DNA from: Escherichia phage LHE287
Length of the DNA stretch: 64,000 nucleotides
Sequence record: PP761450.1
Strand: one strand, 5' to 3'
A program made the translations under genes and the position numbers. The notes beneath the pieces were generated by a model. It ran no database searches and was not told the DNA's origin. It saw nothing but the letters and a program-made list of their open reading frames with translations. Shown piece by piece: positions 3,774 through 63,877 of the stretch; position 1 is the first letter of the stretch; every line of letters starts with the position of its first letter.

Positions 3774-4616
3774 TTAAATGTCGTACAGATCGTTGACTTC
3801 CAGCATCAGGCGGGTGAAGTCGCCGCGCCCGTTGCGGTCAGACTTGTCGAACTCGATGATACTGAACGGCTGAACCCATTCAGGGTACTCATCACCGACG
3901 CCAACACCATCGATCTTCAGGGTTCCGGCCTCCAGCTTGGCGTTGAAGTCGCGGAAGGAACTGACGTACTTTTCAAGGGCGCTGTCGCGCAGGCGCTTGT
4001 TGGACTGTTTGATGTCACCGTTGACAAAGATGTAAGTCGAGTCAGATGCGCGGGTCAGTAGGTTCTTCAGCTGCTCCATATCACATTCCTGCGCTTCTTC
4101 AATGATCAGGAAGGTGTCGTCGAAGGTCATCCCCTTGATGGTCTCCAGATCCTGGATCTCAATAATCCGCTTCTCCCACAGATAGTTGAAGAAACCGTCG
4201 CTACCTGTGTCAGTCTTCAGCACCTTCTTCAGCGTCTGAATCAGGGGCATCAGATATGGCATCAGTTTTTCGTATGTGTCGCCAGGGCGGAAGCCTGCAG
4301 TCTGGCCTGTTGGCAGCGGAGAGCGCGTGATGACGATCTTGCTGACCACTTTATCGATCAGGAGCTTGGCGGCGGCTGAGGCACCACAATACGATTTACC
4401 TGTGCCTGCCGGACCGATTGCGATGGTGAGGTTTTCTTCAAGAGCAGATTGATACGCGAGGTTCTGATTTTCTGAGAGGCCATTGAACGGAGCGATTCTG
4501 AAGTCACCTTTAGAGAACTTCATCCAGTCATCTTCTTTCTGGATTGTCTCTTTCTTACGTGCTGACTTGGTCTTGCCCGCTGGCTTCTTACTTACAACTT
4601 TGGTGGCAGATTGCAT
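3774..4616 (-). CDS. phoH: PhoH-like ATPase
   Basis: 280 aa; Walker A AIGPAGTGKSY; GGAAGG SD. Confidence 0.8.
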   Translation of the reverse strand: MQSATKVVSKKPAGKTKSARKKETIQKEDDWMKFSKGDFRIAPFNGLSENQNLAYQSALEENLTIAIGPAGTGKSYCGASAAAKLLIDKVVSKIVITRSPLPTGQTAGFRPGDTYEKLMPYLMPLIQTLKKVLKTDTGSDGFFNYLWEKRIIEIQDLETIKGMTFDDTFLIIEEAQECDMEQLKNLLTRASDSTYIFVNGDIKQSNKRLRDSALEKYVSSFRDFNAKLEAGTLKIDGVGVGDEYPEWVQPFSIIEFDKSDRNGRGDFTRLMLEVNDLYDI

Positions 4617-12136: not shown

Positions 12137-12472
12137 TTATTTTTGAACTTGGGCTACAGACATCGCCCAGAGCGGGAGGGTGTGGGGGTCCAGGGCTTCC
12201 AGTAGATATTCGACGCGCTCTGACATGATACCTTCAGGGAAGTTTACTTCTTCTGGTTCGTTGTTGGCCGTCCAGCCCAGAGATAACCCTTCAGCGTGAT
12301 GAATGATATAAACGAAGTCGCCTGGTTCGTAGTCCTTTTCCATCAGGGCGAAGAAATCTTCCATTTCTTCGTCGGAGAAGTAGTAGATGCGAGGTACGGA
12401 GCCGTCAGCAAAGTGCTCAGCACCCTGGAAGGCAAACATGTCATCGGCGGTGAAGTTCTTGAGTTGTGTCAT
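12137..12472 (-). CDS. hypothetical protein (112 aa), moron-like
   Basis: ATG 12472 inside conserved leader ...AGGAACTATATCATG shared with loci at 57.2 and 47.9 kb; own promoter and terminator. Confidence 0.55.
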   Translation of the reverse strand: MTQLKNFTADDMFAFQGAEHFADGSVPRIYYFSDEEMEDFFALMEKDYEPGDFVYIIHHAEGLSLGWTANNEPEEVNFPEGIMSERVEYLLEALDPHTLPLWAMSVAQVQK

Positions 12473-12514
12473 GATATAGTTCCTGCTTTTCAAGTTGGTG
12501 TTGTACTGCTTATG
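12473..12514 (-). repeat. conserved 5' leader, cassette copy A
   Basis: minus strand ATAAGCAGTACAACACCAACTTGAAAAGCAGGAACTATATC-ATG; near-identical at 57179-57220, related at 47921-47963. Confidence 0.8.
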
Positions 12515-12520
12515 GAATGA

Positions 12521-12550
12521 AGTATAGGGAAGGATATTGAAGAAGTAAAG
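12521..12550 (-). promoter_or_regulatory. early-type promoter, cassette copy A (-35 CTTTAC, -10 TATACT)
   Basis: minus strand CTTTACttcttcaatatccttcccTATACT followed by conserved 45-nt leader to ATG 12472. Confidence 0.55.
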
Positions 12551-12564
12551 GGGCAAAAGCCCCT
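12539..12564 (-). terminator. terminator hairpin upstream of cassette A promoter
   Basis: AGGGGC-AAAA-GCCCCT flanked by T/A runs. Confidence 0.5.
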
Positions 12565-12578
12565 TTTATTGAATTATT

Positions 12579-13217
12579 TTACGGCGTCAGATTCACAACC
12601 GGAATGTGGGATCGAATACCTGCGATGATGTCCTTCAGCCGAGGATTCCATCCATCCACCAAACGGGGGAGAGCGATAGCGCCAGGCTGGACCAAAATGA
12701 TGTCGCTGCCTGTGATATTGTGCTGAGGGAACTGGGCAAGGTACTGCTCCATGGTGACACCCTCATCAATCAGAACTGCACCGACGTCAGACGATGCGTA
12801 GGTTGCACCCAGGCCGTCAACACCCCATGCCAAGATACCCCAGTCAGGGATGTTAGCTTCAGATGTGATGGTGAATCCAAACACGGTGTTCAGCGAAGTA
12901 AAGGAGTAGACATCGTGGGTGATGTCATACACCAGATACCCCTTGGCCAGCATATCGGCAAAGATCGCGTCCGTATCGCCAGCAGCCGGAGTCGGTACAG
13001 TAAACAACAGCTCGCCATCAGGAGGAGCAGGATACGTGCCGAGGGCATAGAGGCACCATGCGTCAATACACTTCTTGATAAATGCCTCTGGCGCGACATA
13101 ATCAGCAAGGCGAACCGTACCTGAGTACTCTGATACGATAATGCCTTCCTTCGCACCCTGTAGAGCAATGAAGACCAAGATATGTTCATATCCGGCCTGA
13201 GATGGAGTGATGTTCAT
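12579..13217 (-). CDS. hypothetical protein (212 aa)
   Basis: ATG 13217 overlaps upstream stop (TAATG); AAGAGGA SD. Confidence 0.55.
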   Translation of the reverse strand: MNITPSQAGYEHILVFIALQGAKEGIIVSEYSGTVRLADYVAPEAFIKKCIDAWCLYALGTYPAPPDGELLFTVPTPAAGDTDAIFADMLAKGYLVYDITHDVYSFTSLNTVFGFTITSEANIPDWGILAWGVDGLGATYASSDVGAVLIDEGVTMEQYLAQFPQHNITGSDIILVQPGAIALPRLVDGWNPRLKDIIAGIRSHIPVVNLTP

Positions 13218-47821: not shown

Positions 47822-47920
47822 GATAAAGTCCTCTATTTGTAGGGGATAGGGTATGCGGTTAACATACCCTGTTCAAAGGTTTAGAACAAATTGCTGCAAT
47901 GTTACTTTGTAACGAGAGTG

Positions 47921-47963
47921 GTGATAGTTCCTTCATTTCAGAGTCAGTGTTGTGCTGCTTATG
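47921..47963 (-). repeat. conserved 5' leader, cassette copy C (start codon lost)
   Basis: ATAAGCAGCACAACACTGACTCTGAAATGAAGGAACTATCACC, no ATG at the homologous position. Confidence 0.7.
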
Positions 47964-47969
47964 GAATGA

Positions 47970-47998
47970 AGTATACGGGGTTTATTGAAGAATTAAAC
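47970..47998 (-). promoter_or_regulatory. early-type promoter, cassette copy C (-35 GTTTAA, -10 TATACT)
   Basis: minus strand GTTTAAttcttcaataaaccccgTATACT; -35 sits inside a 10-bp-stem hairpin (47975-48003). Confidence 0.5.
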
Positions 47999-48023
47999 CC
48001 CGTATATTGAATAAATTTAAAAT

Positions 48024-49019: not shown

Positions 49020-50492
49020 TTAGTTCAAGACATATTTGATCAGTCCACAATTCCAAATCCTGACCAGCCCGGCTTCGGTTGCTAACTGGCTTTCTGTTTT
49101 GCCTTCTACGTCATACCCCATGCGAGCAAATGAACCTTTTCTGAAACCGAATTTGTGCTCACGCATAAATGTGCCAGGCTTGTGGTATTTGTAGTCTGGC
49201 TTCTGTACTTCCTCTTCTACGAATCCGTGGGATAGGTAAATGTTGGACAACCTGCTTACAACACACCTATCCCCAAAGGAATAGATTTTGGTGTCGGTAA
49301 ATTTTCTTCTGAAGTGTGAAAGAAGTTTACTGAATGCCCCGTGGCAATCATTAGAGGCAAATCTGACTAATTCCAGGCCATCTTTCCTTTTAGTGAATAG
49401 CATCACGGCTTGTATGACCCCACTCTTGTCAATTAACGACAAATGGTGGGTGGAAGAAACGGAACCTTGTATGTGGTGGTTGTCTAAAAACTCCCTCAAG
49501 CCGCTTATATTCCCCCAAACGACTTTGTGTTGGCGAGCATATGACGCGGGTGTTTTAATGCCAAGTTTAGCTTTCAGAAGAGATTTGACCACTTCCTGTT
49601 TCTCAACCCATTCATCTTCCCAGATGTGGATCAACTGGATACCCTGAGTTTCACATATTTCAGTCTTTTCCAGGTGATAATGTTTCTCTTTAAAAACTTC
49701 TGAATGCCAGTACAGGCCATTAAATTCGATCGCCAATTTGTGTTCAGGGCAATAGATATCCAGTTGTTTACCGGATAATATACTGTAATCAGAAACAGTG
49801 TTTACAACTCCCATTGAGGTGAGAAACTCGGATATTTCCTTTTCATAAGAAGATTTCTTGTTCCTGATAGAACCATTGCTGAACAACGCACGTTTTAGTA
49901 TGTTCGAGTTTTTCATAGGGTTGTCAACACCATAACGTTCTTGTAACGTTGCCAACGCCTTCTCCCTCACACCAGGTAATTGTAGTGTGGAGCAGCTTCC
50001 GTATTTGGATATATTCGAATTCTCTATGGCTTTCCGACCAATCCCACCTTTACACATAGAAACCTGATAACATTCTTCAGAACAATATGTTCTGTAATCT
50101 TTATTATTGATATAAAAGTTGGTTTCCTTGGAACACACCGGGCATATTTTCACGGTTCTATTGTACAGCCAAGCTGTGACTTTACAAGCCAAATCTTGTA
50201 GGGTGTTGTGGGTATTGGCGAACACTAAAAGGTCTACATTGATGTGCTTCATAAGCAGTTCAGATTTGCATTTTTGGATATCCAATTTGTTGTTCTTGGT
50301 AAACATATATTTGTAGAAAAATTGGCGATATGATTCCTCGTCAGACAATTCATTCACTGCTTCAAGGAAACCTTCCGGGAGGTTCTTTAGGGTGTTCGAT
50401 GCGAAGGTCTTGCAAGCATCTGAACAAAATTTCTTATCTTTCCTGGATGCTTTGAACTGTTCATGGCAGACACTACAGATTACCTGATACAT
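49020..50492 (-). CDS. nuclease-like protein with N-terminal zinc ribbons; candidate free-standing homing endonuclease
   Basis: ATG 50492 with GGAGGA SD; CxxC pairs (CSVCHEQ, CSDAC, CPVCSKE, CSEEC); IEFNGLYWHSE block; AT-rich codon usage versus neighbours. Confidence 0.55.
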   Translation of the reverse strand: MYQVICSVCHEQFKASRKDKKFCSDACKTFASNTLKNLPEGFLEAVNELSDEESYRQFFYKYMFTKNNKLDIQKCKSELLMKHINVDLLVFANTHNTLQDLACKVTAWLYNRTVKICPVCSKETNFYINNKDYRTYCSEECYQVSMCKGGIGRKAIENSNISKYGSCSTLQLPGVREKALATLQERYGVDNPMKNSNILKRALFSNGSIRNKKSSYEKEISEFLTSMGVVNTVSDYSILSGKQLDIYCPEHKLAIEFNGLYWHSEVFKEKHYHLEKTEICETQGIQLIHIWEDEWVEKQEVVKSLLKAKLGIKTPASYARQHKVVWGNISGLREFLDNHHIQGSVSSTHHLSLIDKSGVIQAVMLFTKRKDGLELVRFASNDCHGAFSKLLSHFRRKFTDTKIYSFGDRCVVSRLSNIYLSHGFVEEEVQKPDYKYHKPGTFMREHKFGFRKGSFARMGYDVEGKTESQLATEAGLVRIWNCGLIKYVLN

Positions 50493-50540: not shown

Positions 50541-50568
50541 AACAAATAAAAACCCCGCCGAAGCGGGG
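50541..50568 (-). terminator. strong rho-independent terminator after major capsid gene
   Basis: CCCCGC-CGAA-GCGGGG then TTTTTATTTGTT on minus strand. Confidence 0.8.
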
Positions 50569-50596
50569 TTTGTCAGGGTTAAGGACAACTATTCGA

Positions 50597-51919
50597 TTAG
50601 AAAAGTCCCTTAATTAACCCTTTGCGGAAATACACGTTGGTGTCCTTGGCGATACCATCCGCAGTCACATAGACCTGTGGATCCTGGTTCGCTGGGATCT
50701 GAACGAATGGGTTAGCACAAATCCCGTAGCGGGTCTTGAACGCCATACGTGGTGCGAAGGTGGTTTCACCCTGGGTGCGGTACATTTCCAGCGGTACATA
50801 CGGTGCGAAGAAGATACCAGCGTCCAGCGCAGTTGCGCCTTTGTATGCCAGGGTGATGTATTCTGCTACTGCATACGGGTCGATGTAGACACGCATACCG
50901 TTAGACAGCACACCAGCGAAGGTCTGACCAGTCGGATCAATCGCCAGCTTGGTGTTTTCCTGCAGCGCCGGAGCATAATCCAGCATACCGGACATCGCCA
51001 GGGCAGACGCTACGTTCGGGGAGCACAGAACACGGTTGCCTTTACCACGACGGGTGTCAACACCGATGCCGTTCGCTTCAACTTCCAGCATGAAAGTCAT
51101 GTACTTCCATTTTTCCAGCGCCCAACGACCGGAGATGTCAGTGGAGATGTCTACGATACCGTTGGTGCCGAATTTTTTGAAGCGTACTGCGCTGAAGTTC
51201 ATGGTGCGGATAAACTCACGGTTCATCTCTGCCTGAATTTCAGTTACCATCACGTCGGACAGGATGCTGTCAACGTCTTCGCCGTGGATCGCCATCATGT
51301 CCTGGCGCAGTTCATGGCTGTAGTCAGCGTACAGGCCGCGAGACTTCGCAGTCACGGTTGCTTTCTGAACGGTGATACCGACACGTGCCCATGGGTTGGT
51401 GGTGGTGCCCAGCAGTTCAGCGTCGGAAGTTGACATACCTTTACCGATGGTGGTGGTAGCAGCGCCGGAACCTTCGATCTCAGTCTGGGAGAAGCCAGAT
51501 GGGTCGCCAGCCTGTGCAGTGTCGTCACCAGAGTAGCCAGAATCAGCTTCCTGCATGAACAGTTCTTTACGGGACTGTGCGGTGTTGGAACCGTCTGCAA
51601 CACCTTGGCGAGCACGCAGTGCGAAGATCTGACCGTCAGGACCAGACAGCGGTTGAACACCGAAGAAGTCCATCGCGATGTTGACCGGAGCCAGACGTTT
51701 GGCCATGTCGATCAGGACTGGCTGCCATTTACCCACAGAGGTGTTCACGGAGCCAGGAGCGTCGGATTCGCCCAGGTTTTTGGCGTTCCACTCAGCCTGG
51801 TTTTGCAGCAGACGGACGGCAACGTTTTCGGCAGAAAGCGGCTGGATGCTTTCAGATTCTTTCTGAAGAACTGGCAGCCACTGCTCGCGCATTTGTTCAG
51901 TAACAAGTTTCTTAGCCAT
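50597..51919 (-). CDS. gp23: major capsid protein (T4 gp23-like)
   Basis: AQPLSGPDGQIFALRA and C-terminal MAFKTRYGICANPF...YFRKGLIKG match T4 gp23; start at second ATG (AAGGA SD). Confidence 0.9.
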   Translation of the reverse strand: MAKKLVTEQMREQWLPVLQKESESIQPLSAENVAVRLLQNQAEWNAKNLGESDAPGSVNTSVGKWQPVLIDMAKRLAPVNIAMDFFGVQPLSGPDGQIFALRARQGVADGSNTAQSRKELFMQEADSGYSGDDTAQAGDPSGFSQTEIEGSGAATTTIGKGMSTSDAELLGTTTNPWARVGITVQKATVTAKSRGLYADYSHELRQDMMAIHGEDVDSILSDVMVTEIQAEMNREFIRTMNFSAVRFKKFGTNGIVDISTDISGRWALEKWKYMTFMLEVEANGIGVDTRRGKGNRVLCSPNVASALAMSGMLDYAPALQENTKLAIDPTGQTFAGVLSNGMRVYIDPYAVAEYITLAYKGATALDAGIFFAPYVPLEMYRTQGETTFAPRMAFKTRYGICANPFVQIPANQDPQVYVTADGIAKDTNVYFRKGLIKGLF

Positions 51920-52011
51920 GATGGTCATTCCTTACATTGATATTCAGTTAAGTTGAAATTACTTAGTAGTTCAAAATCAAGCCCCCTTTTCGAGGGCTGT
52001 GGCTGCTAAAA

Positions 52012-52863: not shown

Positions 52864-52908
52864 GATTGTTTCCTTCTGAACGATTTTCAGTATTTAGTGA
52901 GGCTGAAT

Positions 52909-55871: not shown

Positions 55872-56405
55872 TTAGAGAGACTTGTCTGAAATGGCCTGGA
55901 AGTAACGCAGGTCAACAGTGAACTGAGTATAAGAGTCCATTGCAGACATGTCCAGTTCCAGCTGACCGAGGTTCTGAGGCCAGGTGCCCTGAAGGGTCCA
56001 GGTCTTGGTGACGTTGTCATTCGCATCCAGCAGTTCCATGATTACATCACGGAAATAATCATCTGGGTTAGCAGACGCACGGTTGTTGTTGCTGCCGTTG
56101 ATATACTGCTGCCAGACTTCGAATGCGTTGTACGGGGCGTTGTCCACGACGTTGATGAACGTCACAGGCAGAGCCTCGAAACGACGGTCGCCTGGGAATG
56201 GAAGTTCACGACCACCCCATGGGACGAGTATTTCCCCGAGCTGGCCTGTTGGGGTATTTGTGGTCACCGCTAACAGCGAAACATCACGGATGGTATCGCT
56301 TCCAGCCACGAAGGAAGGGAAGTTAACAGTCACACGCCAACGGTGTTGGCGCTGAACGCCGCCCCCGCGTGACATAGCTGCTCTGAATTCATTAACTGTA
56401 GCCAT
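55872..56405 (-). CDS. gp19: tail tube protein (T4 gp19-like)
   Basis: C-terminal TWPQNLGQLELDMSAMDSYTQFTVDLRYF vs T4 gp19 LWPTNVGELQLDWDSNNEIQTFEVTLALDYWE. Confidence 0.85.
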   Translation of the reverse strand: MATVNEFRAAMSRGGGVQRQHRWRVTVNFPSFVAGSDTIRDVSLLAVTTNTPTGQLGEILVPWGGRELPFPGDRRFEALPVTFINVVDNAPYNAFEVWQQYINGSNNNRASANPDDYFRDVIMELLDANDNVTKTWTLQGTWPQNLGQLELDMSAMDSYTQFTVDLRYFQAISDKSL

Positions 56406-56430
56406 GGTCGTTCTCCTCTGAATAGTGTAA

Positions 56431-56438
56431 ATATTTAG
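56431..56438 (-). promoter_or_regulatory. candidate late promoter variant CTAAATAT upstream of tail tube gene
   Basis: minus strand aaCTAAATATt 25 nt upstream of gp19 ATG. Confidence 0.35.
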
Positions 56439-56821
56439 TTTTGAAATAAATGGGGGTTAAAATACCCCAAAGTGAGGATATTTATTATGTCATTCCCCCG
56501 ATAAAATTGTTCATGCTACCACAAACCGTTCACCCCAACCAGGAAGGCTGCGTTGTATTGTAGTGACGAATGTAAATCATTCATGCTGGGAACGATGAAA
56601 CGCAACTCAGATTTATTGGTCAATCTTCCGGCGACCGAAACTGAATGCCGCTCTTGGGTTGATAGTAAACTCAGGAAGAAAGATGGTTCGTTGAACTTGG
56701 ATACGATACAGAAGGAAAACAGAGGATATGCTGGCGATAGAAGCCGGGTTGGGTGTATCTGGGGTGTGGTCTTATCCGGTATGAACTGGAAACTAAAACC
56801 CCGCCTCAGCGGGGTAAACTA

Positions 56822-57178
56822 CTATTTGCGAATGCTAACCTGAGCATAATACACATGATAATCACCATGGGCACGGAAGCTGGTGAGGTGGAATGTGACG
56901 AGGTGGCTCCCGAAAGCTACAACTTTGGTATCTGGGGAGCATAAATCATTAGCCAGTTCACCCAGAACCTTACCACAAAACTCCTCAACGATAGCGTTAA
57001 ATCTGTCAATGTGTGGACTGGTCACCGTCATTGGACCAACATCTGCACAGTAGATCCCTTTTATCATCTTTCCCTGGCTGTCGCGTACTGGCTTTGCAGG
57101 CTGGTAAGGATTGATGCGGCGTTTCAGGTTACAGAGGCCGATTTCTTTCAGGATAGCGTTAATTTCAGTCTTGGTCAT
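56822..57178 (-). CDS. hypothetical protein (118 aa), moron between tube and sheath genes
   Basis: ATG 57178 inside conserved leader ...GAAGGAACTATATCATG (cassette copy B). Confidence 0.5.
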   Translation of the reverse strand: MTKTEINAILKEIGLCNLKRRINPYQPAKPVRDSQGKMIKGIYCADVGPMTVTSPHIDRFNAIVEEFCGKVLGELANDLCSPDTKVVAFGSHLVTFHLTSFRAHGDYHVYYAQVSIRK

Positions 57179-57220
57179 GATATAGTTCCTTCGTTTCAAG
57201 TTGGTGTCGTACTGCTTATG
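57179..57220 (-). repeat. conserved 5' leader, cassette copy B
   Basis: ATAAGCAGTACGACACCAACTTGAAACGAAGGAACTATATC-ATG. Confidence 0.8.
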
Positions 57221-57226
57221 TTTAGA

Positions 57227-57255
57227 ATTATACGTGAGTTATTGAAGAAGTAAAG
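57227..57255 (-). promoter_or_regulatory. early-type promoter, cassette copy B (-35 CTTTAC, 17 bp, -10 TATAAT)
   Basis: minus strand CTTTACttcttcaataactcacgTATAAT followed by conserved leader to ATG 57178. Confidence 0.6.
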
Positions 57256-57278
57256 TAATTCAATAAAATAATCTGGGA

Positions 57279-57305
57279 AAAATTTAAAACCCCGCCGAAG
57301 CGGGG
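57279..57305 (-). terminator. rho-independent terminator, same hairpin as after gp23
   Basis: CCCCGC-CGAA-GCGGGG then TTTTAAATTTTT on minus strand. Confidence 0.8.
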
Positions 57306-57310
57306 TCTTG

Positions 57311-57613
57311 TTACACTTTGCTGTATTTCTTAAACAATTTACCGAGTTCACCTGGGGCTTCTCGAGTTCCAGCAGCTTTGCTAACAACCTGTTTATCTTT
57401 CTTCAGGTCGAATACTTTGATCTCTTTGCCATTATATGTATATTCAAAATCATCAATGGTTATGCGGAAGAAATCTCCAAATACTCCATTTTCGATATCA
57501 CCCTTTTTGAGCCTTACATCTTGGTCTTCCAACCATTCAATCACGGAGTCTTTAACTTTCTGAAGGTCACCTTTTAGGCCTGCTTCTGCTAAAAATTGAG
57601 AAAAACTTTTCAT
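57311..57613 (-). CDS. hypothetical protein (100 aa), moron between tube and sheath genes
   Basis: GAGGT SD; followed by terminator identical to the one after gp23. Confidence 0.5.
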   Translation of the reverse strand: MKSFSQFLAEAGLKGDLQKVKDSVIEWLEDQDVRLKKGDIENGVFGDFFRITIDDFEYTYNGKEIKVFDLKKDKQVVSKAAGTREAPGELGKLFKKYSKV

Positions 57614-57628
57614 AACAATACCTCAATG

Positions 57629-57646
57629 TGCCCTCCGAAGAGGGCA
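57629..57646 (-). terminator. hairpin after tail sheath gene
   Basis: TGCCCTC-CGAA-GAGGGCA; weak U-tract. Confidence 0.45.
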
Positions 57647-57655
57647 TGGAGTAAA

Positions 57656-59551
57656 TTAAGAAACGGCTACGATACCACCACCAGTTTCGATCTCGCTGAA
57701 CTCCATGTCCGGACGTACCGCAGCAAAGTCCAGATACACCCAGTTGATGGAGTATTCTGGTTTCAGCCAGATACCCGCGACCATCTGGTTCGCAGCGATA
57801 ACATCAGCGGTGTTGTTGTCCTCGTCACACTTCACCATCCCGTCATAGATCGCGCCCATGTTGGCCAACTGGCGGATATATGGGCGGACAGCGTTGCTGA
57901 ACAACCCACGAGTGAATGCATCGTTGTTCTCACCAAGGTAGTATTTGGCGATGGCTGCGATGTTCTGCTCTGCCATAATGAACAGACCACGAACGTTGAT
58001 GCGGTCGAACGCAGATGGGCGGGTCAGGCCAGTCTTGTCGCCGTACAACACGATGCCTTCGTTGGAGAAGGTGACGATGCTGTTGATCTGGTTGCGATAC
58101 AGCACAGCACGCTCATCAGAAGACGCAGACCACGCCATTCGATTATAGTTGTTGTATTTACCACGGTTGTGGAACGCTGGAGACTTGTAGATACCCGCGA
58201 TTTCAATGCTTCGCGCCCAAACACCTGCGGTGCCGCCACAAGCCGGAATCCAACGCATTTTGTCGTTGTACTTGTCGTACACATACGCCCAGTTGTCATC
58301 CATGAAGAAGTAGGAGGAGTCGCGAACAAGGCTTTCACGCCAGGCCACAACATCATCCATCTCACGGCCACGGTTTCCGACGACCGTATCGCGAAGAGGA
58401 GACACGAAGGACACTGTGTCTTTACGCTCAGTGGACAGGTCGATCAGCGCCTGCTGCTCAATCAGTTCTTCACAGAAACCGAACACTGGCTTGGCATCAT
58501 ACGCTTCGGCGTTGTTCAGTGCCTGGATAGCCGCAACACGGTTCCCAGTGTAATCGTCTACACCACCTTCGAGTTCAATGACACCAGCAGCCAGGGTATT
58601 GGCGAAGGCGTACACCCAATTTGAGGTGCCGTTGATCACGTCTTTGAAGTACGCATTGGATCCATCAGATTTCTTAGAACCCTGAGCGGTCTGCACCAGT
58701 TCATACTTCTCGATGATCGTACCGGAAGCACCAACAGTGGTGACGGCAGCGGTAGCAGTCAGACCATTCGCGTCTGGAACAATCGCAGTCGCAGCCTGAG
58801 GACCGATTGCTTTGTGAGTGACGGTGACGGTGTTGGACTTCACGACAACAGAAGAATACACTTCAGACAGGGACGTCAGCGCAGTTCCGATCTTTGTCGC
58901 CAAGGTCGCCGGGGTGTCAGCGTCAGTGTACGCCACGGCTTCACCAGCAACAGAGATGGAACCAGCAGCGGTGGCAGTACCGGATACAGAGATACGATCA
59001 ACCTGACTAACAGCGCCAGAAGAGTCGGTGATGCGACCTACTTTGTCAACGATGGCGATATGGTACTCGCCATCCTGCGGAGCATATGCGAAGTTGTTAC
59101 GGAATTCCCAGGTCGGGAACAGCGCAGCGTCACAGATGTTCACAGCAATGTCGTTACCCAGAGAGCCAGCATAGCGGCCTGTCCAGGTAATAGACGCAGA
59201 TGGAGACGCAGTTTCGAAGTCTAGTTTGTTGCGGATAAGGATTGCAGTCTGACCTTTGGTTACAGCGTTGCGTGCCGCCGGACCGACCACACGGGTCACC
59301 CATGCAACAGAGCTGTAAGACAGGAAGTCAGCAATCACCAAGAAGTCGGTGGCAGTTGCATCGTTTGGCTTGAAGAATTTCTTCACCAGACCAGTTTCGC
59401 CACCAGTGACCAACACAGGGAGTTCTGCTTCACCCCATTGGAATTTGCCGACAGTCGCACCCTGAACAACAACGGATGGAGACGTCTGAAGCGTGGCATC
59501 ACGCTCAGTCCACTGTACGGACGGCGCAACGCTGAAGCTTTGAGTTGCCAT
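57656..59551 (-). CDS. gp18: tail sheath protein (T4 gp18-like)
   Basis: start ATG 59551 (AAGGA SD); YDKYNDKMRWIPACGGTAGVWAR, DRINVRGLF match T4 gp18. Confidence 0.9.
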   Translation of the reverse strand: MATQSFSVAPSVQWTERDATLQTSPSVVVQGATVGKFQWGEAELPVLVTGGETGLVKKFFKPNDATATDFLVIADFLSYSSVAWVTRVVGPAARNAVTKGQTAILIRNKLDFETASPSASITWTGRYAGSLGNDIAVNICDAALFPTWEFRNNFAYAPQDGEYHIAIVDKVGRITDSSGAVSQVDRISVSGTATAAGSISVAGEAVAYTDADTPATLATKIGTALTSLSEVYSSVVVKSNTVTVTHKAIGPQAATAIVPDANGLTATAAVTTVGASGTIIEKYELVQTAQGSKKSDGSNAYFKDVINGTSNWVYAFANTLAAGVIELEGGVDDYTGNRVAAIQALNNAEAYDAKPVFGFCEELIEQQALIDLSTERKDTVSFVSPLRDTVVGNRGREMDDVVAWRESLVRDSSYFFMDDNWAYVYDKYNDKMRWIPACGGTAGVWARSIEIAGIYKSPAFHNRGKYNNYNRMAWSASSDERAVLYRNQINSIVTFSNEGIVLYGDKTGLTRPSAFDRINVRGLFIMAEQNIAAIAKYYLGENNDAFTRGLFSNAVRPYIRQLANMGAIYDGMVKCDEDNNTADVIAANQMVAGIWLKPEYSINWVYLDFAAVRPDMEFSEIETGGGIVAVS

Positions 59552-59592
59552 AATCTTATTCCTTCTCTGTAGAGTTTCGCTCAATTTGAAAG

Positions 59593-59600
59593 ATATTTAG
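59593..59600 (-). promoter_or_regulatory. candidate late promoter variant CTAAATAT upstream of tail sheath gene
   Basis: minus strand CTAAATAT about 42 nt upstream of gp18 ATG. Confidence 0.35.
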
Positions 59601-59603
59601 TGA

Positions 59604-61814
59604 TCACCGTCTCAGCCATTCTTCCATAGACACACCAGAGCGTTCATCATAAACCTGAATTCCACCGAACCCTGGGATGTTCTCCACAGAGTGAGGATCT
59701 GGTGTCGACATCATACCCCCAAATGGTAGCATCTGAGATTCTTCCATCGCAGACAACCGTCCTCTCATGTCCACAGAGATATTTGAATTGGTGAGATCAC
59801 TAAACCATTCTTGTTTCACCGCCCATGCATACAACACGAGGGGCATTACACAGTCATCATGACAACCATCATCGGCTTCATACCTTGTTCCAGTCCATAC
59901 GAATGTACTGAGTTCATCTATCGTGTCCTGGTCATCTATCACCAGCATTTCACGTTCAATCAGGGCTTTCAGGTTGGCACAGCCGTTTGTGCGCACCTTC
60001 TTGTTGGTATTGATACCAGGCTCAGGGCGGCGACCACCGATTCTCTTGCCTGTACCCTTGGTATCTGTTGTAGTGAAGATGATCTCGGGATATTCAATTT
60101 CCTGGTATAGAATTGTGATTACCTGACCACCCACGTCGTTGTTGGTCTCGACTAGCATCGGGCACGTTCCATACTTCTCACCCATATCGGCGATTGTGTA
60201 CGCGTACATCATTGGAGGTATCGTGTTATTTCGATACTTGGCTGCGATCTTGTGAGGATAGTCTGTGATGTCGATAATGGTCAGCACAGAATAATCCCCT
60301 TCGACACCCTTGCCTGTATCTGCGATACCCATATAGATGCGCTTAGGATCGTAGTCGTGATAAATCTTGGTGAACTCGTTCGGCTCCTGATACAGCTTCG
60401 AGGTCATCTTGTCCAGACACTTGGCAGGTATCAGTGATCCCACAGAACCACGGAACTTAATGCCAAATTCTTGATCGAAACGTGCATCACCCAGCTTCGC
60501 CCTTTGTTTGGATTCCCAGTCTGGATCTTTGGTGTACGTTGGAACACGATACCATGGGACCTCTGTGAGTTTGAAGTCGTTGTATTGTGGATGTTCTGGG
60601 TTCGCCTTGGTGACGATGTCGTAGAACAACCCGCGCTGACCTTTCGGCGTACTGGTCAGAATACAACGTGAAGTCTCTGCAGATGCAATCGCCGGGAATG
60701 TAGACTCCCAGAATTCAAAGTCGTTTTCAATGAACGCCACTTCGTCCACATACAGGAGCGATACAGATCGACCACGGATGGAGTCGGAAGATGTCGCATA
60801 GGCGTAGATCTTTGATCCGTTTTCGAACTCTATCAGCGTGGAACCGAACTTCTCACAACCCTGTTGGAGGAAGAATGGCAAATCTTGATATGCTTTGCGA
60901 ATACGATCTAGGATTTCAATCGCCTGCTTCTCTTTGTTCGCCAGTACTGCGATCTCTTTGTCGGAGTGGAACATCGCATACCAGAGCAGGAACGCTGCCA
61001 CGACAGTCGTGTTGTGGCTGAGGAAGCCGTTGGTGTAGTAGCGCTGATCACTAGATTTCACCTGTAGGTCATACATGTGATGCGTCTCACCAGTCTGCCA
61101 AACCTCACGGATTTCTTCTGGACCTTCTGACGTCATGATGTATGACCCAGCATTCAGGTCTTTGGCAAATATCTCCTTCATTTCCGGAGTGAAGAATATA
61201 TGTTCGTCGGCCACGTTAATTCGCCGCCCAGTAACAGTCACAATAACGAATTCCGCATATTTCTTCGTCTTATGCGCTGCGATAACCGGAACCCAGCCAC
61301 TATCGGATTGCACAAAGTAACGCTTGCCGAAGCGGCTGTCCACGAACTTGTCATGGTTGCCAATGGTATTCAGCGGCACAGCGTGGTTGACGTCCTCGAA
61401 GCGGCTGTGAAGCTCCCCTATGGTCAGGAGCAACTGCTCTTGGCTGAGAGTATCGTAAACTGTGACAAGCGTGTCACCTTTTACACATTTCCCAGACTGA
61501 CGAGCCTGGACGACCGCATTGAATCGATAGTCCTGGAAGTCATGGAACAACTGCTTCTGGTAATCGTGCATGTCAAAGAGGATGAAGCCTTTATCGATGG
61601 TCGTGATCTTGTAGTAGTTGGCGGCGAAGTAATGGGCGTCCATCGCACACTCGACGAACTCCGATTCTTGTTCGTCGGTTAGCATCAACTCCACACGAGG
61701 TGCACGCACAGACGGCTTGCGCATGAACGTTTGGTCCATACGCAGTCTGACGTCTTCTGTCTTAAACCCCGTCTTGAGCGGGGCGTATTCTACATCACGC
61801 TTCTGATACGCCAT
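59604..61814 (-). CDS. gp17: terminase large subunit (T4 gp17-like) interrupted by an in-frame mini-intein
   Basis: YYKITTIDKGFILFDMHDYQ and RQSGK/TTVVAAFLLW match T4 gp17 Walker A SRQLGKTTVVAIFLAH once residues 116-274 (track numbering) are removed; start at ATG 61814 (GGAGAAGGTG SD). Confidence 0.9.
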   Translation of the reverse strand: MAYQKRDVEYAPLKTGFKTEDVRLRMDQTFMRKPSVRAPRVELMLTDEQESEFVECAMDAHYFAANYYKITTIDKGFILFDMHDYQKQLFHDFQDYRFNAVVQARQSGKCVKGDTLVTVYDTLSQEQLLLTIGELHSRFEDVNHAVPLNTIGNHDKFVDSRFGKRYFVQSDSGWVPVIAAHKTKKYAEFVIVTVTGRRINVADEHIFFTPEMKEIFAKDLNAGSYIMTSEGPEEIREVWQTGETHHMYDLQVKSSDQRYYTNGFLSHNTTVVAAFLLWYAMFHSDKEIAVLANKEKQAIEILDRIRKAYQDLPFFLQQGCEKFGSTLIEFENGSKIYAYATSSDSIRGRSVSLLYVDEVAFIENDFEFWESTFPAIASAETSRCILTSTPKGQRGLFYDIVTKANPEHPQYNDFKLTEVPWYRVPTYTKDPDWESKQRAKLGDARFDQEFGIKFRGSVGSLIPAKCLDKMTSKLYQEPNEFTKIYHDYDPKRIYMGIADTGKGVEGDYSVLTIIDITDYPHKIAAKYRNNTIPPMMYAYTIADMGEKYGTCPMLVETNNDVGGQVITILYQEIEYPEIIFTTTDTKGTGKRIGGRRPEPGINTNKKVRTNGCANLKALIEREMLVIDDQDTIDELSTFVWTGTRYEADDGCHDDCVMPLVLYAWAVKQEWFSDLTNSNISVDMRGRLSAMEESQMLPFGGMMSTPDPHSVENIPGFGGIQVYDERSGVSMEEWLRR
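61011..61487 (-). mobile_element. mini-intein (159 aa) within terminase large-subunit P-loop
   Basis: begins CVKGDTLVTV, ends YTNGFLSHN followed by Thr +1; excision restores RQSGKTTVVAAF; length implies no homing-endonuclease domain. Confidence 0.7.
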
Positions 61815-62496
61815 TGTCTTCACCTTCTCCATTCGGCTCTGCCTGAACGTCGATTACATCTTCTTCGGGATCAGGTCCTTTGGACGCAGCTTTCGCTGCA
61901 GCACGTTCTTCAGCACGTTTACGGGCGTCTTCGATGGTCTTCAGTAGATCACGGGAAGACCTGGCCTGTTTACCGACGTTGACCGTGGTTGTGCCATCAG
62001 GGGACGTGGTGACCTCGACGGTTGTTTCGTCTCCAGGAGGTGGCTCTCTGTCGCCCGTGACCGCCTTGATAGTTTTCTGGTTCTCCATCAGGTCTTTGTT
62101 CAGACCGCGCATGAGTTCACCCAACTCTTTGAAGACTGTGAAAGCACGGGGTGCTTCAGTCGTCGTCGCAAGTTTGGCTGCCTGTCCCATCATGAACATC
62201 GTGGCTTCCTGCATGGCATAAGTCGTGTCACGGATGCGTTTGTAGTCGGTGGTGGCATCAGTATCTTCGAAGTCTGGAACCTTAGACTCCTTGGGCTTCA
62301 GCTCTTCTGGGTCCAATGAAGGAGGAAACACCACAGGCTCATACCCCGCAGGCTTTTCACCCAACCATTCGCCTGTATCCGGATCGTAATCTTTTCCGGC
62401 CATAGGCGAGGTCTTCTCCATGACTTCTTGAGCGACCTCATCCCGCGCTTGGATAGCACTGAGGGTGGATAATAGGCGTTCTGACATAGCACTCAT
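61795..62496 (-). CDS. gp16: terminase small subunit (T4 gp16-like)
   Basis: TTDYKRIRDTTYAMQEATMFMMGQAAK...FTVFKELGELMRG resembles T4 gp16; ATG 62496 with GGAG SD. Confidence 0.7.
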   Translation of the reverse strand: MSAMSERLLSTLSAIQARDEVAQEVMEKTSPMAGKDYDPDTGEWLGEKPAGYEPVVFPPSLDPEELKPKESKVPDFEDTDATTDYKRIRDTTYAMQEATMFMMGQAAKLATTTEAPRAFTVFKELGELMRGLNKDLMENQKTIKAVTGDREPPPGDETTVEVTTSPDGTTTVNVGKQARSSRDLLKTIEDARKRAEERAAAKAASKGPDPEEDVIDVQAEPNGEGEDNGVSEA

Positions 62497-63869: not shown

Positions 63870-63877
63870 GTATTTAG
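63870..63877 (-). promoter_or_regulatory. candidate late promoter variant CTAAATAC upstream of gp14
   Basis: minus strand CTAAATAC 23 nt upstream of ATG 63847. Confidence 0.35.

What the first reader, a model, noticed from the sequence alone, without database searches (positions are those of the whole stretch)
56822..57613. Two small genes with their own promoter and terminator inserted between tail tube and tail sheath genes
In T4, genes 18 and 19 are adjacent. Here a 100-aa and a 118-aa ORF lie between them, the latter driven by cassette copy B, and the former ending in a terminator hairpin identical to the one after gp23. This places an early-type transcription unit inside the late structural block.
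Basis: partly seen in the sequence, partly recalled or inferred. Interest (0 to 1): 0.45.

Follow-up and report, generated by a model that had tools for sequence, protein, structure and literature searches.

The report
Swappable accessory genes between tail genes
The gap between the tail-sheath and tail-tube genes of this ViI-like (Ackermannviridae) phage is a fast-changing insertion site that here holds two small accessory genes of unknown function and a dead homing-endonuclease gene; one small gene is driven by a repeated promoter cassette, a known kind of phage mosaicism found here in a family where I found no description of it.

Summary
Both ORFs (100 aa, 57311-57613; 118 aa, 56822-57178; minus strand) are real genes under purifying selection, lying between gp18 and gp19. 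The hairpin after the 100-aa ORF is identical over 21 nt to the one after gp23. The promoter cassette before the 118-aa ORF has two more copies in the window.

The phage is an Ackermannviridae member, not T4. In this family the gp18-gp19 spacer varies from 77 bp to about 2.4 kb in the 22-locus survey (about 2.7 kb in ZQ1) and mostly holds homing endonucleases. Only the 118-aa ORF has a sigma-70-type promoter. The 100-aa ORF has none and is probably co-transcribed late with gp18.

Homology breakpoints with relatives fall exactly on the terminator hairpins and on the cassette's ATG. The same cassette heads at least 12 unrelated ORF families at four locus types across the family. This matches the PeSL (promoter-early stem-loop) modular-shuffling elements of T4-type phages.

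Neither protein has a known fold or function, and neither is conserved: ORF100 occurs in 6 of about 271 related records.

Verdict: new member of a known kind, modest interest.

The parts
57656..59584 (-). gp18 tail sheath gene. It is the upstream neighbour. A late-promoter-like CTAAATA lies at 59594-59600.
57620..57637 (-). Hairpin H1 (UGCCCUC-UUCG-GAGGGCA) just after the gp18 stop. It has no U tract. It is shared with phages whose site is empty, and it is the left boundary of the swappable spacer.
57311..57613 (-). ORF100, a rare ORFan. It has an SD sequence (GAGGT) but no promoter of its own, and is probably co-transcribed with gp18.
57286..57309 (-). Intrinsic terminator T2 (10-bp stem, UUCG loop, U tract), 21 nt identical to the post-gp23 terminator. 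It is the crossover point between Magnus-like and PC3-like sequence.
57179..57279 (-). Promoter/leader cassette, copy B. It has an AT-rich upstream stretch, -35 TTTACT (57254-57249), -10 TATAAT (57232-57227), and an unstructured conserved leader with SD GAAGGA.
56822..57178 (-). ORF118, member of phrog_13016 (unknown function). It is a small alpha/beta protein. Homologues sit at other loci in other phages.
56798..56815 (-). Terminator T3 (ACCCCGC-UGAG-GCGGGGU plus U tract). It has the same stem family as T2 and abuts the 3' end of the endonuclease remnant on the other strand.
56487..56800 (+). Pseudogene of a Hef-like homing endonuclease (DUF7487 plus Vsr/DUF559-like). It keeps the N-terminal 70 codons, with a stop at codon 6, and about 36 C-terminal codons. 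About 1460 bp including the catalytic region are deleted between imperfect direct repeats.
56432..56438 (-). CTAAATA late-promoter-like motif 27 nt upstream of the gp19 ATG. It would restart late transcription after the terminators.
55872..56405 (-). gp19 tail tube gene. Its ATG is the right boundary of the swappable spacer.
50550..50571 (-). Terminator after the major capsid gene (gp23), identical in stem-loop to T2. The post-gp23 site is the alternative home of both small ORFs in other phages.
12470..12580 (-). Cassette copy A. Its stem-loop overlaps the -35 box. It heads an unrelated 111-aa ORF (12137-12472).
47921..48022 (-). Cassette copy C. [quoted passage not shown] It is followed by a deleted remnant of a 93-aa ORF that is intact in ZQ1.

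Best explanation
The 1250-bp gp18-gp19 spacer is a hypervariable insertion site of an Ackermannviridae phage. Here it is assembled from three independent non-core modules.

(1) ORF100 rides on the late gp18 transcript. It is translated from its own SD sequence and stopped by terminator T2.

(2) ORF118 sits behind a PeSL-like regulatory cassette: terminator hairpin, AT-rich stretch, sigma-70-type promoter and a conserved unstructured leader. Host RNA polymerase probably transcribes it early. Terminator T3 insulates it from gp19.

(3) A decayed Hef-like homing-endonuclease gene lies on the opposite strand.

gp19 keeps its late expression through its own CTAAATA promoter.

The modules were brought together by homologous recombination in the short shared regulatory sequences, namely the ACCCCGC...GCGGGGT hairpins and the cassette. 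Homing-endonuclease-stimulated repair at this site probably helped.

Shown:
- the anatomy;
- the mosaic breakpoints;
- the multi-copy cassette heading unrelated ORFs;
- the patchy distribution;
- purifying selection on both ORFs.

Inferred:
- promoter and terminator activity and timing;
- the recombination mechanism;
- that the two proteins are dispensable accessory (host-interaction type) proteins rather than virion parts.
For: Family and site:
- The closest relatives are Ackermannviridae; ZQ1 is 97.7% identical.
- In 22 IMG/VR loci the spacer is 77-78 bp (2 loci), 545-1372 bp with one or two GIY-YIG-type ORFs (16), about 2.1-2.4 kb with a 603-608-aa Hef-like endonuclease (3), or the window's layout (1).
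- RPN242 is 99.2% identical up to the gp19 ATG and 98.2% identical from inside hairpin H1. Between those points it carries a GIY-YIG gene instead.

Breakpoints:
- Magnus shares 57285-57700 (gp18 end, ORF100, T2).
- PC3 shares 56687-57306 (T2, cassette, ORF118).
- The overlap between the two is the T2 hairpin itself.

Alternative sites:
- ORF100 homologues lie right after gp23 in SKML-39 and CAU_YEP3, between two identical hairpins.
- The ORF118 homologue in Magnus lies right after gp23, with the same cassette and flanking terminators.

Cassette:
- There are 3 copies in the window and 3-5 per genome in IMG/VR.
- ORFs behind it fall into 13 BLASTP-unrelated families.
- Exact gene replacement occurs from the cassette ATG at locus A. 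Insertion and deletion occur at locus C.
- The promoter fits the published T4/PST PeSL consensus TTTACW-N17-TAYWAT (PMC4122927).
- The stem-loop takes three positions relative to the promoter, as in PeSL subclasses (PMC2839356).

Late motif: all 10 CTAAATA occurrences are on the coding strand (10 against 3.7 expected).
Against: - There is no transcription data for any Ackermannviridae phage in the searched library, so early timing and terminator efficiency are sequence-based guesses.
- The upstream boundary of the ORF100 module is hairpin H1, not a cassette, so not every joint fits the cassette model.
- ORF118 at this site is always next to the Hef-like endonuclease (ZQ1, PC3, A221, Mutine, maane, L009). 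Endonuclease-driven co-conversion could therefore explain its presence without cassette recombination.
- Short shared hairpins could be convergent, as good terminators look alike, rather than recombination scars.
- Protein functions remain unknown.
Confidence: 0.65

Rival explanations
1. Homing-endonuclease hitch-hiking. The Hef-like endonuclease cut the gp18-gp19 region of a naive phage during co-infection, and repair copied the endonuclease gene together with flanking ORF118 (co-conversion). The endonuclease gene later decayed. On this view the hairpins and cassette are only regulatory, not recombination sites.
For: - At this site ORF118 (88% identity or more) is always adjacent and convergent to the 594-603-aa endonuclease gene or its remnant.
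- The site is occupied by some endonuclease gene in 19 of 22 surveyed loci.
- The upstream region of gp19 comes in two forms linked to the insert type.
- LIMEstone1 carries the endonuclease at the same place.
Against: - ORF118 homologues sit behind the same cassette at the post-gp23 site and at locus A, with no adjacent endonuclease gene in the Magnus or aagejoakim annotations.
- LIMEstone1 has the endonuclease without ORF118.
- ORF100 came with a different partner: a GIY-YIG gene in Magnus.
- The Magnus/PC3 breakpoint is at the hairpin.
- The two mechanisms are not exclusive.
Confidence: 0.3
2. The two small proteins are tail-related components or assembly factors, and their position between sheath and tube reflects function.
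For: Both sit in the late structural block. ORF100 is probably expressed late with gp18, and in other phages it follows the capsid gene.
Against: - They are absent from most relatives, including phages 98-99% identical in gp18 and gp19.
- Homologues sit in non-structural contexts.
- There is no fold similarity to known virion proteins.
Confidence: 0.06
3. The ORFs are chance open frames in a non-coding spacer.
For: There is no Pfam match for either, and no PHROG match for ORF100.
Against: - Full-length homologues exist with synonymous sites saturated and pN of 0.10-0.30.
- SD sequences sit at the correct spacing, and terminators lie immediately after the stops.
- The ORF118 model is confident (pLDDT 92) and matches other phage proteins.
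Confidence: 0.02

Closest known systems
PeSL (promoter-early stem-loop) cassettes with ORFans in T4-type phages (Arbiol et al. 2010, PMC2839356; Comeau et al. 2014, PMC4122927)
   Same: - A composite motif of about 100 bp: AT-rich stretch, sigma-70-like promoter, stem-loop and SD/ATG.
- Several conserved copies per genome.
- The stem-loop lies upstream of, overlapping, or between the promoter boxes.
- It sits directly in front of ORFans that differ between close relatives.
- Crossovers map to the stem-loop or to the region between the -10 box and the ATG.
- The promoter resembles the T4/PST PeSL consensus TTTACW-N17-TAYWAT.
   Different: - Found here in Ackermannviridae, where no held paper mentions PeSLs.
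- One copy lies inside the conserved late structural block rather than in a hyperplastic region.
- The cassette includes a conserved leader of about 45 nt.
- No promoter, terminator or mini-circle experiments exist for this family.
Morons of lambdoid phages (Juhala/Hendrix concept, as discussed in PMC2839356)
   Same: A single gene with its own promoter and terminator inserted between genes of a late operon, transcriptionally insulated from its neighbours.
   Different: Morons are not flanked by conserved repeated sequences, and are typically expressed from a prophage. This is a virulent phage, and the flanks are a repeated cassette and a hairpin family.
Free-standing homing endonucleases of T4-like and ViI-like phages (Hef-like F-LimVIII of LIMEstone1, PMC3296691; seg/mob genes of T4)
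   Same: Same intergenic site next to the tail tube gene. The remnant is 84% identical over the N-terminal 74 residues to the intact ZQ1 protein.
   Different: In the window the gene is dead: it has a stop at codon 6 and the catalytic region is deleted. The two small ORFs are not endonucleases.
[quoted passage not shown]
   Same: The same family of phages and the same kind of small autonomous unit inside the structural block.
   Different: A different site. Homology of those genes to ORF100 or ORF118 was not tested.

Membership tests
PeSL-type mobile regulatory cassette | Sigma-70-like -35/-10 promoter with an AT-rich upstream region | tested here: met
   TTTACT-16 nt-TATAAT scores 10/12, the best site in the region. 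The boxes are conserved across copies while the spacer varies. This is a sequence match only.
PeSL-type mobile regulatory cassette | Stable stem-loop within or next to the promoter | tested here: met
   Copy B has T2 about 25 nt upstream (-17.3 kcal/mol). In copy A the hairpin overlaps the -35 box. In copy C the hairpin lies between -35 and -10.
PeSL-type mobile regulatory cassette | Multiple conserved copies per genome | tested here: met
   There are 3 copies in 64 kb and 3-5 exact core matches per Ackermannviridae genome in IMG/VR.
PeSL-type mobile regulatory cassette | Placed in front of ORFans that differ between close relatives, with breakpoints in the cassette | tested here: met
   13 unrelated ORF families sit behind the core. 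There are swaps at locus A, locus C and at T2.
PeSL-type mobile regulatory cassette | Demonstrated promoter and terminator activity; formation of mini-circles | not testable with these tools
   Needs reporter fusions, RNA end mapping and inverse PCR.
Moron | Gene with its own promoter and terminator inserted in a late operon | tested here: met
   ORF118 meets it at sequence level. ORF100 does not, as it has no promoter.
Moron | No conserved flanking sequences; expression from a prophage | tested here: not met
   The flanks are a repeated cassette and a hairpin family. The relatives are virulent Ackermannviridae.
Hef-like free-standing homing endonuclease | Intact ORF with nuclease domain (DUF7487 plus Vsr/DUF559-like region in the ZQ1 homologue) | tested here: not met
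   The window keeps only the two ends, with stop codons. There is no Pfam hit on the 96-aa chimeric ORF. It is a pseudogene.
Conserved virion/tail protein | Present in all relatives with conserved position | tested here: not met
   ORF100 is in 6 records and close ORF118 homologues in 9 of about 271. Two phages have an empty site.
Known anti-phage defence or solved-structure families | Profile or fold match | tested here: not met

The most novel reading that the evidence does not exclude
Ackermannviridae possess their own PeSL-equivalent: a terminator / promoter / leader cassette of about 105 nt, present at four or more loci per genome. It acts as a portable recombination linker that shuttles at least a dozen ORFan families between sites, including into the otherwise conserved late tail operon, and it cooperates with homing endonucleases at the same hot spots. 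If so, the conserved leader may also carry a shared post-transcriptional control signal.
Probability: 0.5. Interest if true: 0.45.

Novelty: new member of a known kind. Interest (0 to 1): 0.3.

Why it matters
It extends cassette-mediated modular shuffling, described only for T4-type phages, to the Ackermannviridae. These phages are widely proposed for biocontrol and therapy.

It also pinpoints sites where accessory genes turn over between isolates that are 98-99% identical elsewhere: the gp18-gp19 spacer, the post-gp23 site, and the two other cassette loci seen in the window.

These sites and the cassette could be used as natural landing pads and expression signals for phage engineering.

The ORFans they carry are candidates for host-interaction or anti-defence functions. 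The biology itself is not surprising to a phage genomicist.

Tried and rejected
Protein searches that gave nothing useful:
- Pfam, PHROGs and PADLOC gave no informative match. ORF118 hit only phrog_13016, of unknown function.
- The 5.8-billion-protein word-index search found only 5 (ORF118) and 4 (ORF100) close relatives.
- The exhaustive HMMER search with the ORF100 profile found one real cluster. It also found weak multi-stretch hits to giant cadherin/VCBS-like repeat proteins. I read these as a shared beta-hairpin motif (G-x-F/Y-G-x-F-x-I-x-x-D-x-x-Y-T-Y), not homology.
- The afdb50 structure library was unavailable.

RNA and DNA searches:
- Rfam on the spacer gave only sub-threshold hits caused by the hairpins.
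- The leader RNA is unstructured (z = +1.06), so a riboswitch-like element was rejected.
- A first IMG/VR pattern with a fixed 9-nt gap found nothing because the spacing was wrong. It was repeated with a variable gap.

Hypotheses rejected:
- T4 late promoter TATAAATA upstream of the small ORFs: absent.
- MotA-type middle promoter: no TGCTT box in the cassette.
- ORF118 as a paralogue of the window's 111-aa cassette-A gene: rejected, with no BLASTP similarity.

Full report
**1. Observation**

All genes in this part of the window read on the minus strand. The order is gp17 terminase (59604-61832), gp18 sheath (57656-59584), a 100-aa ORF (57311-57613), a 118-aa ORF (56822-57178), gp19 tube (55872-56405), gp20 portal, gp21, gp22 and gp23 (50597-51928).

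The hairpin ACCCCGC-TTCG-GCGGGGT lies 1 nt after the ORF100 stop. It recurs after gp23 with 21 identical bases, and a loop variant follows ORF118. The pattern gives 3 matches against 0 in shuffles. All three fold stably, at -13 to -17 kcal/mol, and are followed by U tracts.

Upstream of ORF118 is the best sigma-70-like site in the region: TTTACT, 16 nt, TATAAT, scoring 10/12. It is embedded in a cassette of about 105 nt. The cassette recurs at 12470-12580 and 47921-48022 (nhmmer E 1e-24 to 1e-26).

Both ORFs are under purifying selection.

**2. Context**

The window is an Ackermannviridae (ViI-like) phage. Escherichia phage ZQ1 is 97.7% identical over this region. In total 271 records match, nearly all infecting enterobacteria; every one I opened was classified in Ackermannviridae.

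**3. Anatomy of the 1250-bp spacer**

Reading from gp18 towards gp19:
- Hairpin H1 (57620-57637). It has no U tract and is also present in phages with an empty site.
- ORF100, with SD GAGGT but no promoter-like site and no CTAAATA in front of it.
- Terminator T2.
- Cassette B.
- ORF118.
- Terminator T3.
- On the plus strand, the two ends of a homing-endonuclease gene (56487-56800).
- A further small hairpin, then a CTAAATA motif 27 nt before the gp19 ATG.

The endonuclease is intact in ZQ1, PC3 and A221, where it is 594 aa with DUF7487 plus Vsr/DUF559-like domains. In LIMEstone1 it is the 'Hef-like' F-LimVIII. The window lacks about 1460 bp of it and has a stop at codon 6.

The deletion lies between two imperfect direct repeats of about 25 bp. 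The metagenomic twin L009 has a different junction in the same repeats.

**4. Comparative genomics of the junction**

In 22 IMG/VR loci the spacer has the following contents:
- 77-78 bp, empty: 2 loci.
- 545-1372 bp, with one or two GIY-YIG-type ORFs: 16 loci. Three representatives were checked by Pfam.
- About 2.1-2.4 kb, with the Hef-like gene: 3 loci, two of them also carrying ORF118.
- The window's layout: 1 locus (L009).

Magnus has gp18-H1-ORF100-T followed by a GIY-YIG gene. PC3 and A221 have gp18-T-cassette-ORF118-T-endonuclease without ORF100.

RPN242 is 99.2% identical up to the gp19 ATG and 98.2% identical from inside H1. In between it carries only a GIY-YIG gene. The whole spacer, including the gp19 upstream region, is therefore a recently exchanged segment.

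ORF100 occurs in only 6 phage records and forms a single 50% cluster among 1.84 billion representatives. Close ORF118 homologues occur in 9 records and more distant ones in about 50.

**5. Mobility of the modules**

Both small genes occupy other sites elsewhere:
- ORF100 homologues (76% identity) lie directly after gp23 in SKML-39 and CAU_YEP3, between two identical ACCCCGCTTCGGCGGGGT hairpins.
- The ORF118 homologue of Magnus (55% identity) lies directly after gp23, with the same cassette and flanking hairpins.
- A 30% paralogue sits behind cassette A in Kuttervirus aagejoakim.
- Remote homologues are found in Straboviridae, either in clusters of small genes or as a lone gene beside gp54.

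The window is a mosaic. Magnus-type sequence runs to the T2 hairpin and PC3-type sequence runs from it. The only shared stretch is the hairpin itself.

At locus A the flanks are 77-88% identical between the window and aagejoakim, but the gene from the cassette ATG to just past the stop is replaced by an unrelated one. At locus C the cassette heads different genes in different phages. ZQ1 has a 93-aa ORF there, MK-13 has an additional 88-aa ORF with a duplicated leader end, and the window keeps only a 44-bp remnant.

A scan of IMG/VR for the promoter core found 3-5 copies per Ackermannviridae genome at four locus types. The ORFs behind them fall into 13 BLASTP-unrelated families. Four of 19 terminator-like hairpins on the coding strand share the ACCCCGC stem.

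**6. Expression model (inferred)**

- Late transcripts from CTAAATA motifs run through gp18, H1 and ORF100 and stop at T2. All 10 CTAAATA occurrences are on the coding strand, and the same motif is the published late promoter of T4-like phage Aeh1.
- Host sigma-70 polymerase starts at cassette B. The leader is unstructured. ORF118 is made, and T3 stops the transcript.
- gp19 restarts from its own CTAAATA.

No transcription data for this family were found.

**7. The proteins**

ORF100 is modelled with pLDDT 73 and gives no informative match.

There are no PADLOC, Pfam or PDB sequence hits.

My commitment is that both are dispensable cytoplasmic accessory proteins of the host-interaction type. 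This rests on their distribution and regulation, not on homology.

**8. Comparison with known systems**

The arrangement matches the PeSL-plus-ORFan cassettes of T4-type phages in every sequence-level defining feature. It also matches in the location of crossovers. Activity and mini-circles could not be tested.

The arrangement differs in three ways: the phage family, a conserved leader, and one copy sitting inside the late tail operon. No held paper mentions PeSLs together with Ackermannviridae. The LIMEstone paper had noted the endonuclease at this site and a similar two-gene insertion between the neck genes.

**9. Verdict**

This is a new member of a known kind, of modest interest.

Noticed in passing
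window 61011-61487 (-), inside gp17 (59604-61832): The large terminase carries a 159-aa mini-intein (Cys116 to Asn274, followed by Thr). It is inserted in the Walker A loop ARQSGK|T. The Pfam Intein_splicing hit scores 28.8 bits, below the cut-off of 35.8 bits.
   Followed up: partly
window 49020-50492 (-): A second, apparently intact Hef-like homing-endonuclease gene (490 aa; weak Vsr/DUF559/DUF7487 hits) sits directly after the gp23 terminator. This is the site where other phages carry the ORF100 or ORF118 homologues.
   Followed up: partly
window 12137-12580 (-) vs L007 2385-2860: Behind cassette copy A the window has a 111-aa ORF unrelated to the 119-aa ORF118 paralogue at the same place in Kuttervirus aagejoakim. 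The replacement starts exactly at the ATG. Across IMG/VR at least five different gene families occupy this slot.
   Followed up: yes
window 47885-48022 (-): Cassette copy C is followed not by an ATG but by a 44-bp remnant of a 93-aa ORF that is intact in ZQ1. MK-13 has an extra 88-aa ORF inserted here with a duplicated leader end.
   Followed up: yes
window 56660-56730 vs L009 5640-5760 and L001 2361-2431 / 3832-3902: The endonuclease gene was deleted between two imperfect ~25-bp direct repeats. The window and its metagenomic twin L009 have different junctions within the repeat. This suggests either independent deletions or later conversion.
   Followed up: partly
window, 10 sites, e.g. 52891-52897, 56432-56438, 59594-59600, 63871-63877 (-): All 10 occurrences of CTAAATA are on the coding strand (3.7 expected). 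Most of them lie roughly 10-45 nt upstream of gene starts, e.g. gp22, gp19, gp18 and the 63847 gene. It is probably the late promoter of this phage, as in T4-like phage Aeh1.
   Followed up: partly
window 56406-56470 vs L023/L011/L037 upstream of gp19: The gp19 upstream region, including the late-promoter motif and SD, exists in two unrelated forms. CTAAATA...gaggagaacgacc accompanies the Hef-like insert. CTAATTA...ggagaatctata accompanies GIY-YIG inserts or empty sites. The gp19 expression signals therefore travel with the insert.
   Followed up: partly
ORF100 residues ~35-65; P0010, P0012, P0013: The ORF100 profile gives weak multi-stretch hits to giant repeat proteins, including bacterial cadherin-like/Big_9 proteins. 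The hits run through a G-x-F/Y-G-x-F-x-I-x-x-D-x-x-Y-T-Y beta-hairpin motif. I read this as motif resemblance rather than homology.
   Followed up: partly
cassette leaders: window 57179-57226, 12473-12520, 47925-47975: The ~45-nt leader CATAAGCAGYACRACAC..TGAAAYGAAGGAACTATATCATG is conserved in front of unrelated genes and across genera. It is predicted to be unstructured. I could not decide whether it is only a recombination scar and good ribosome-binding site or also a shared translational operator.
   Followed up: no
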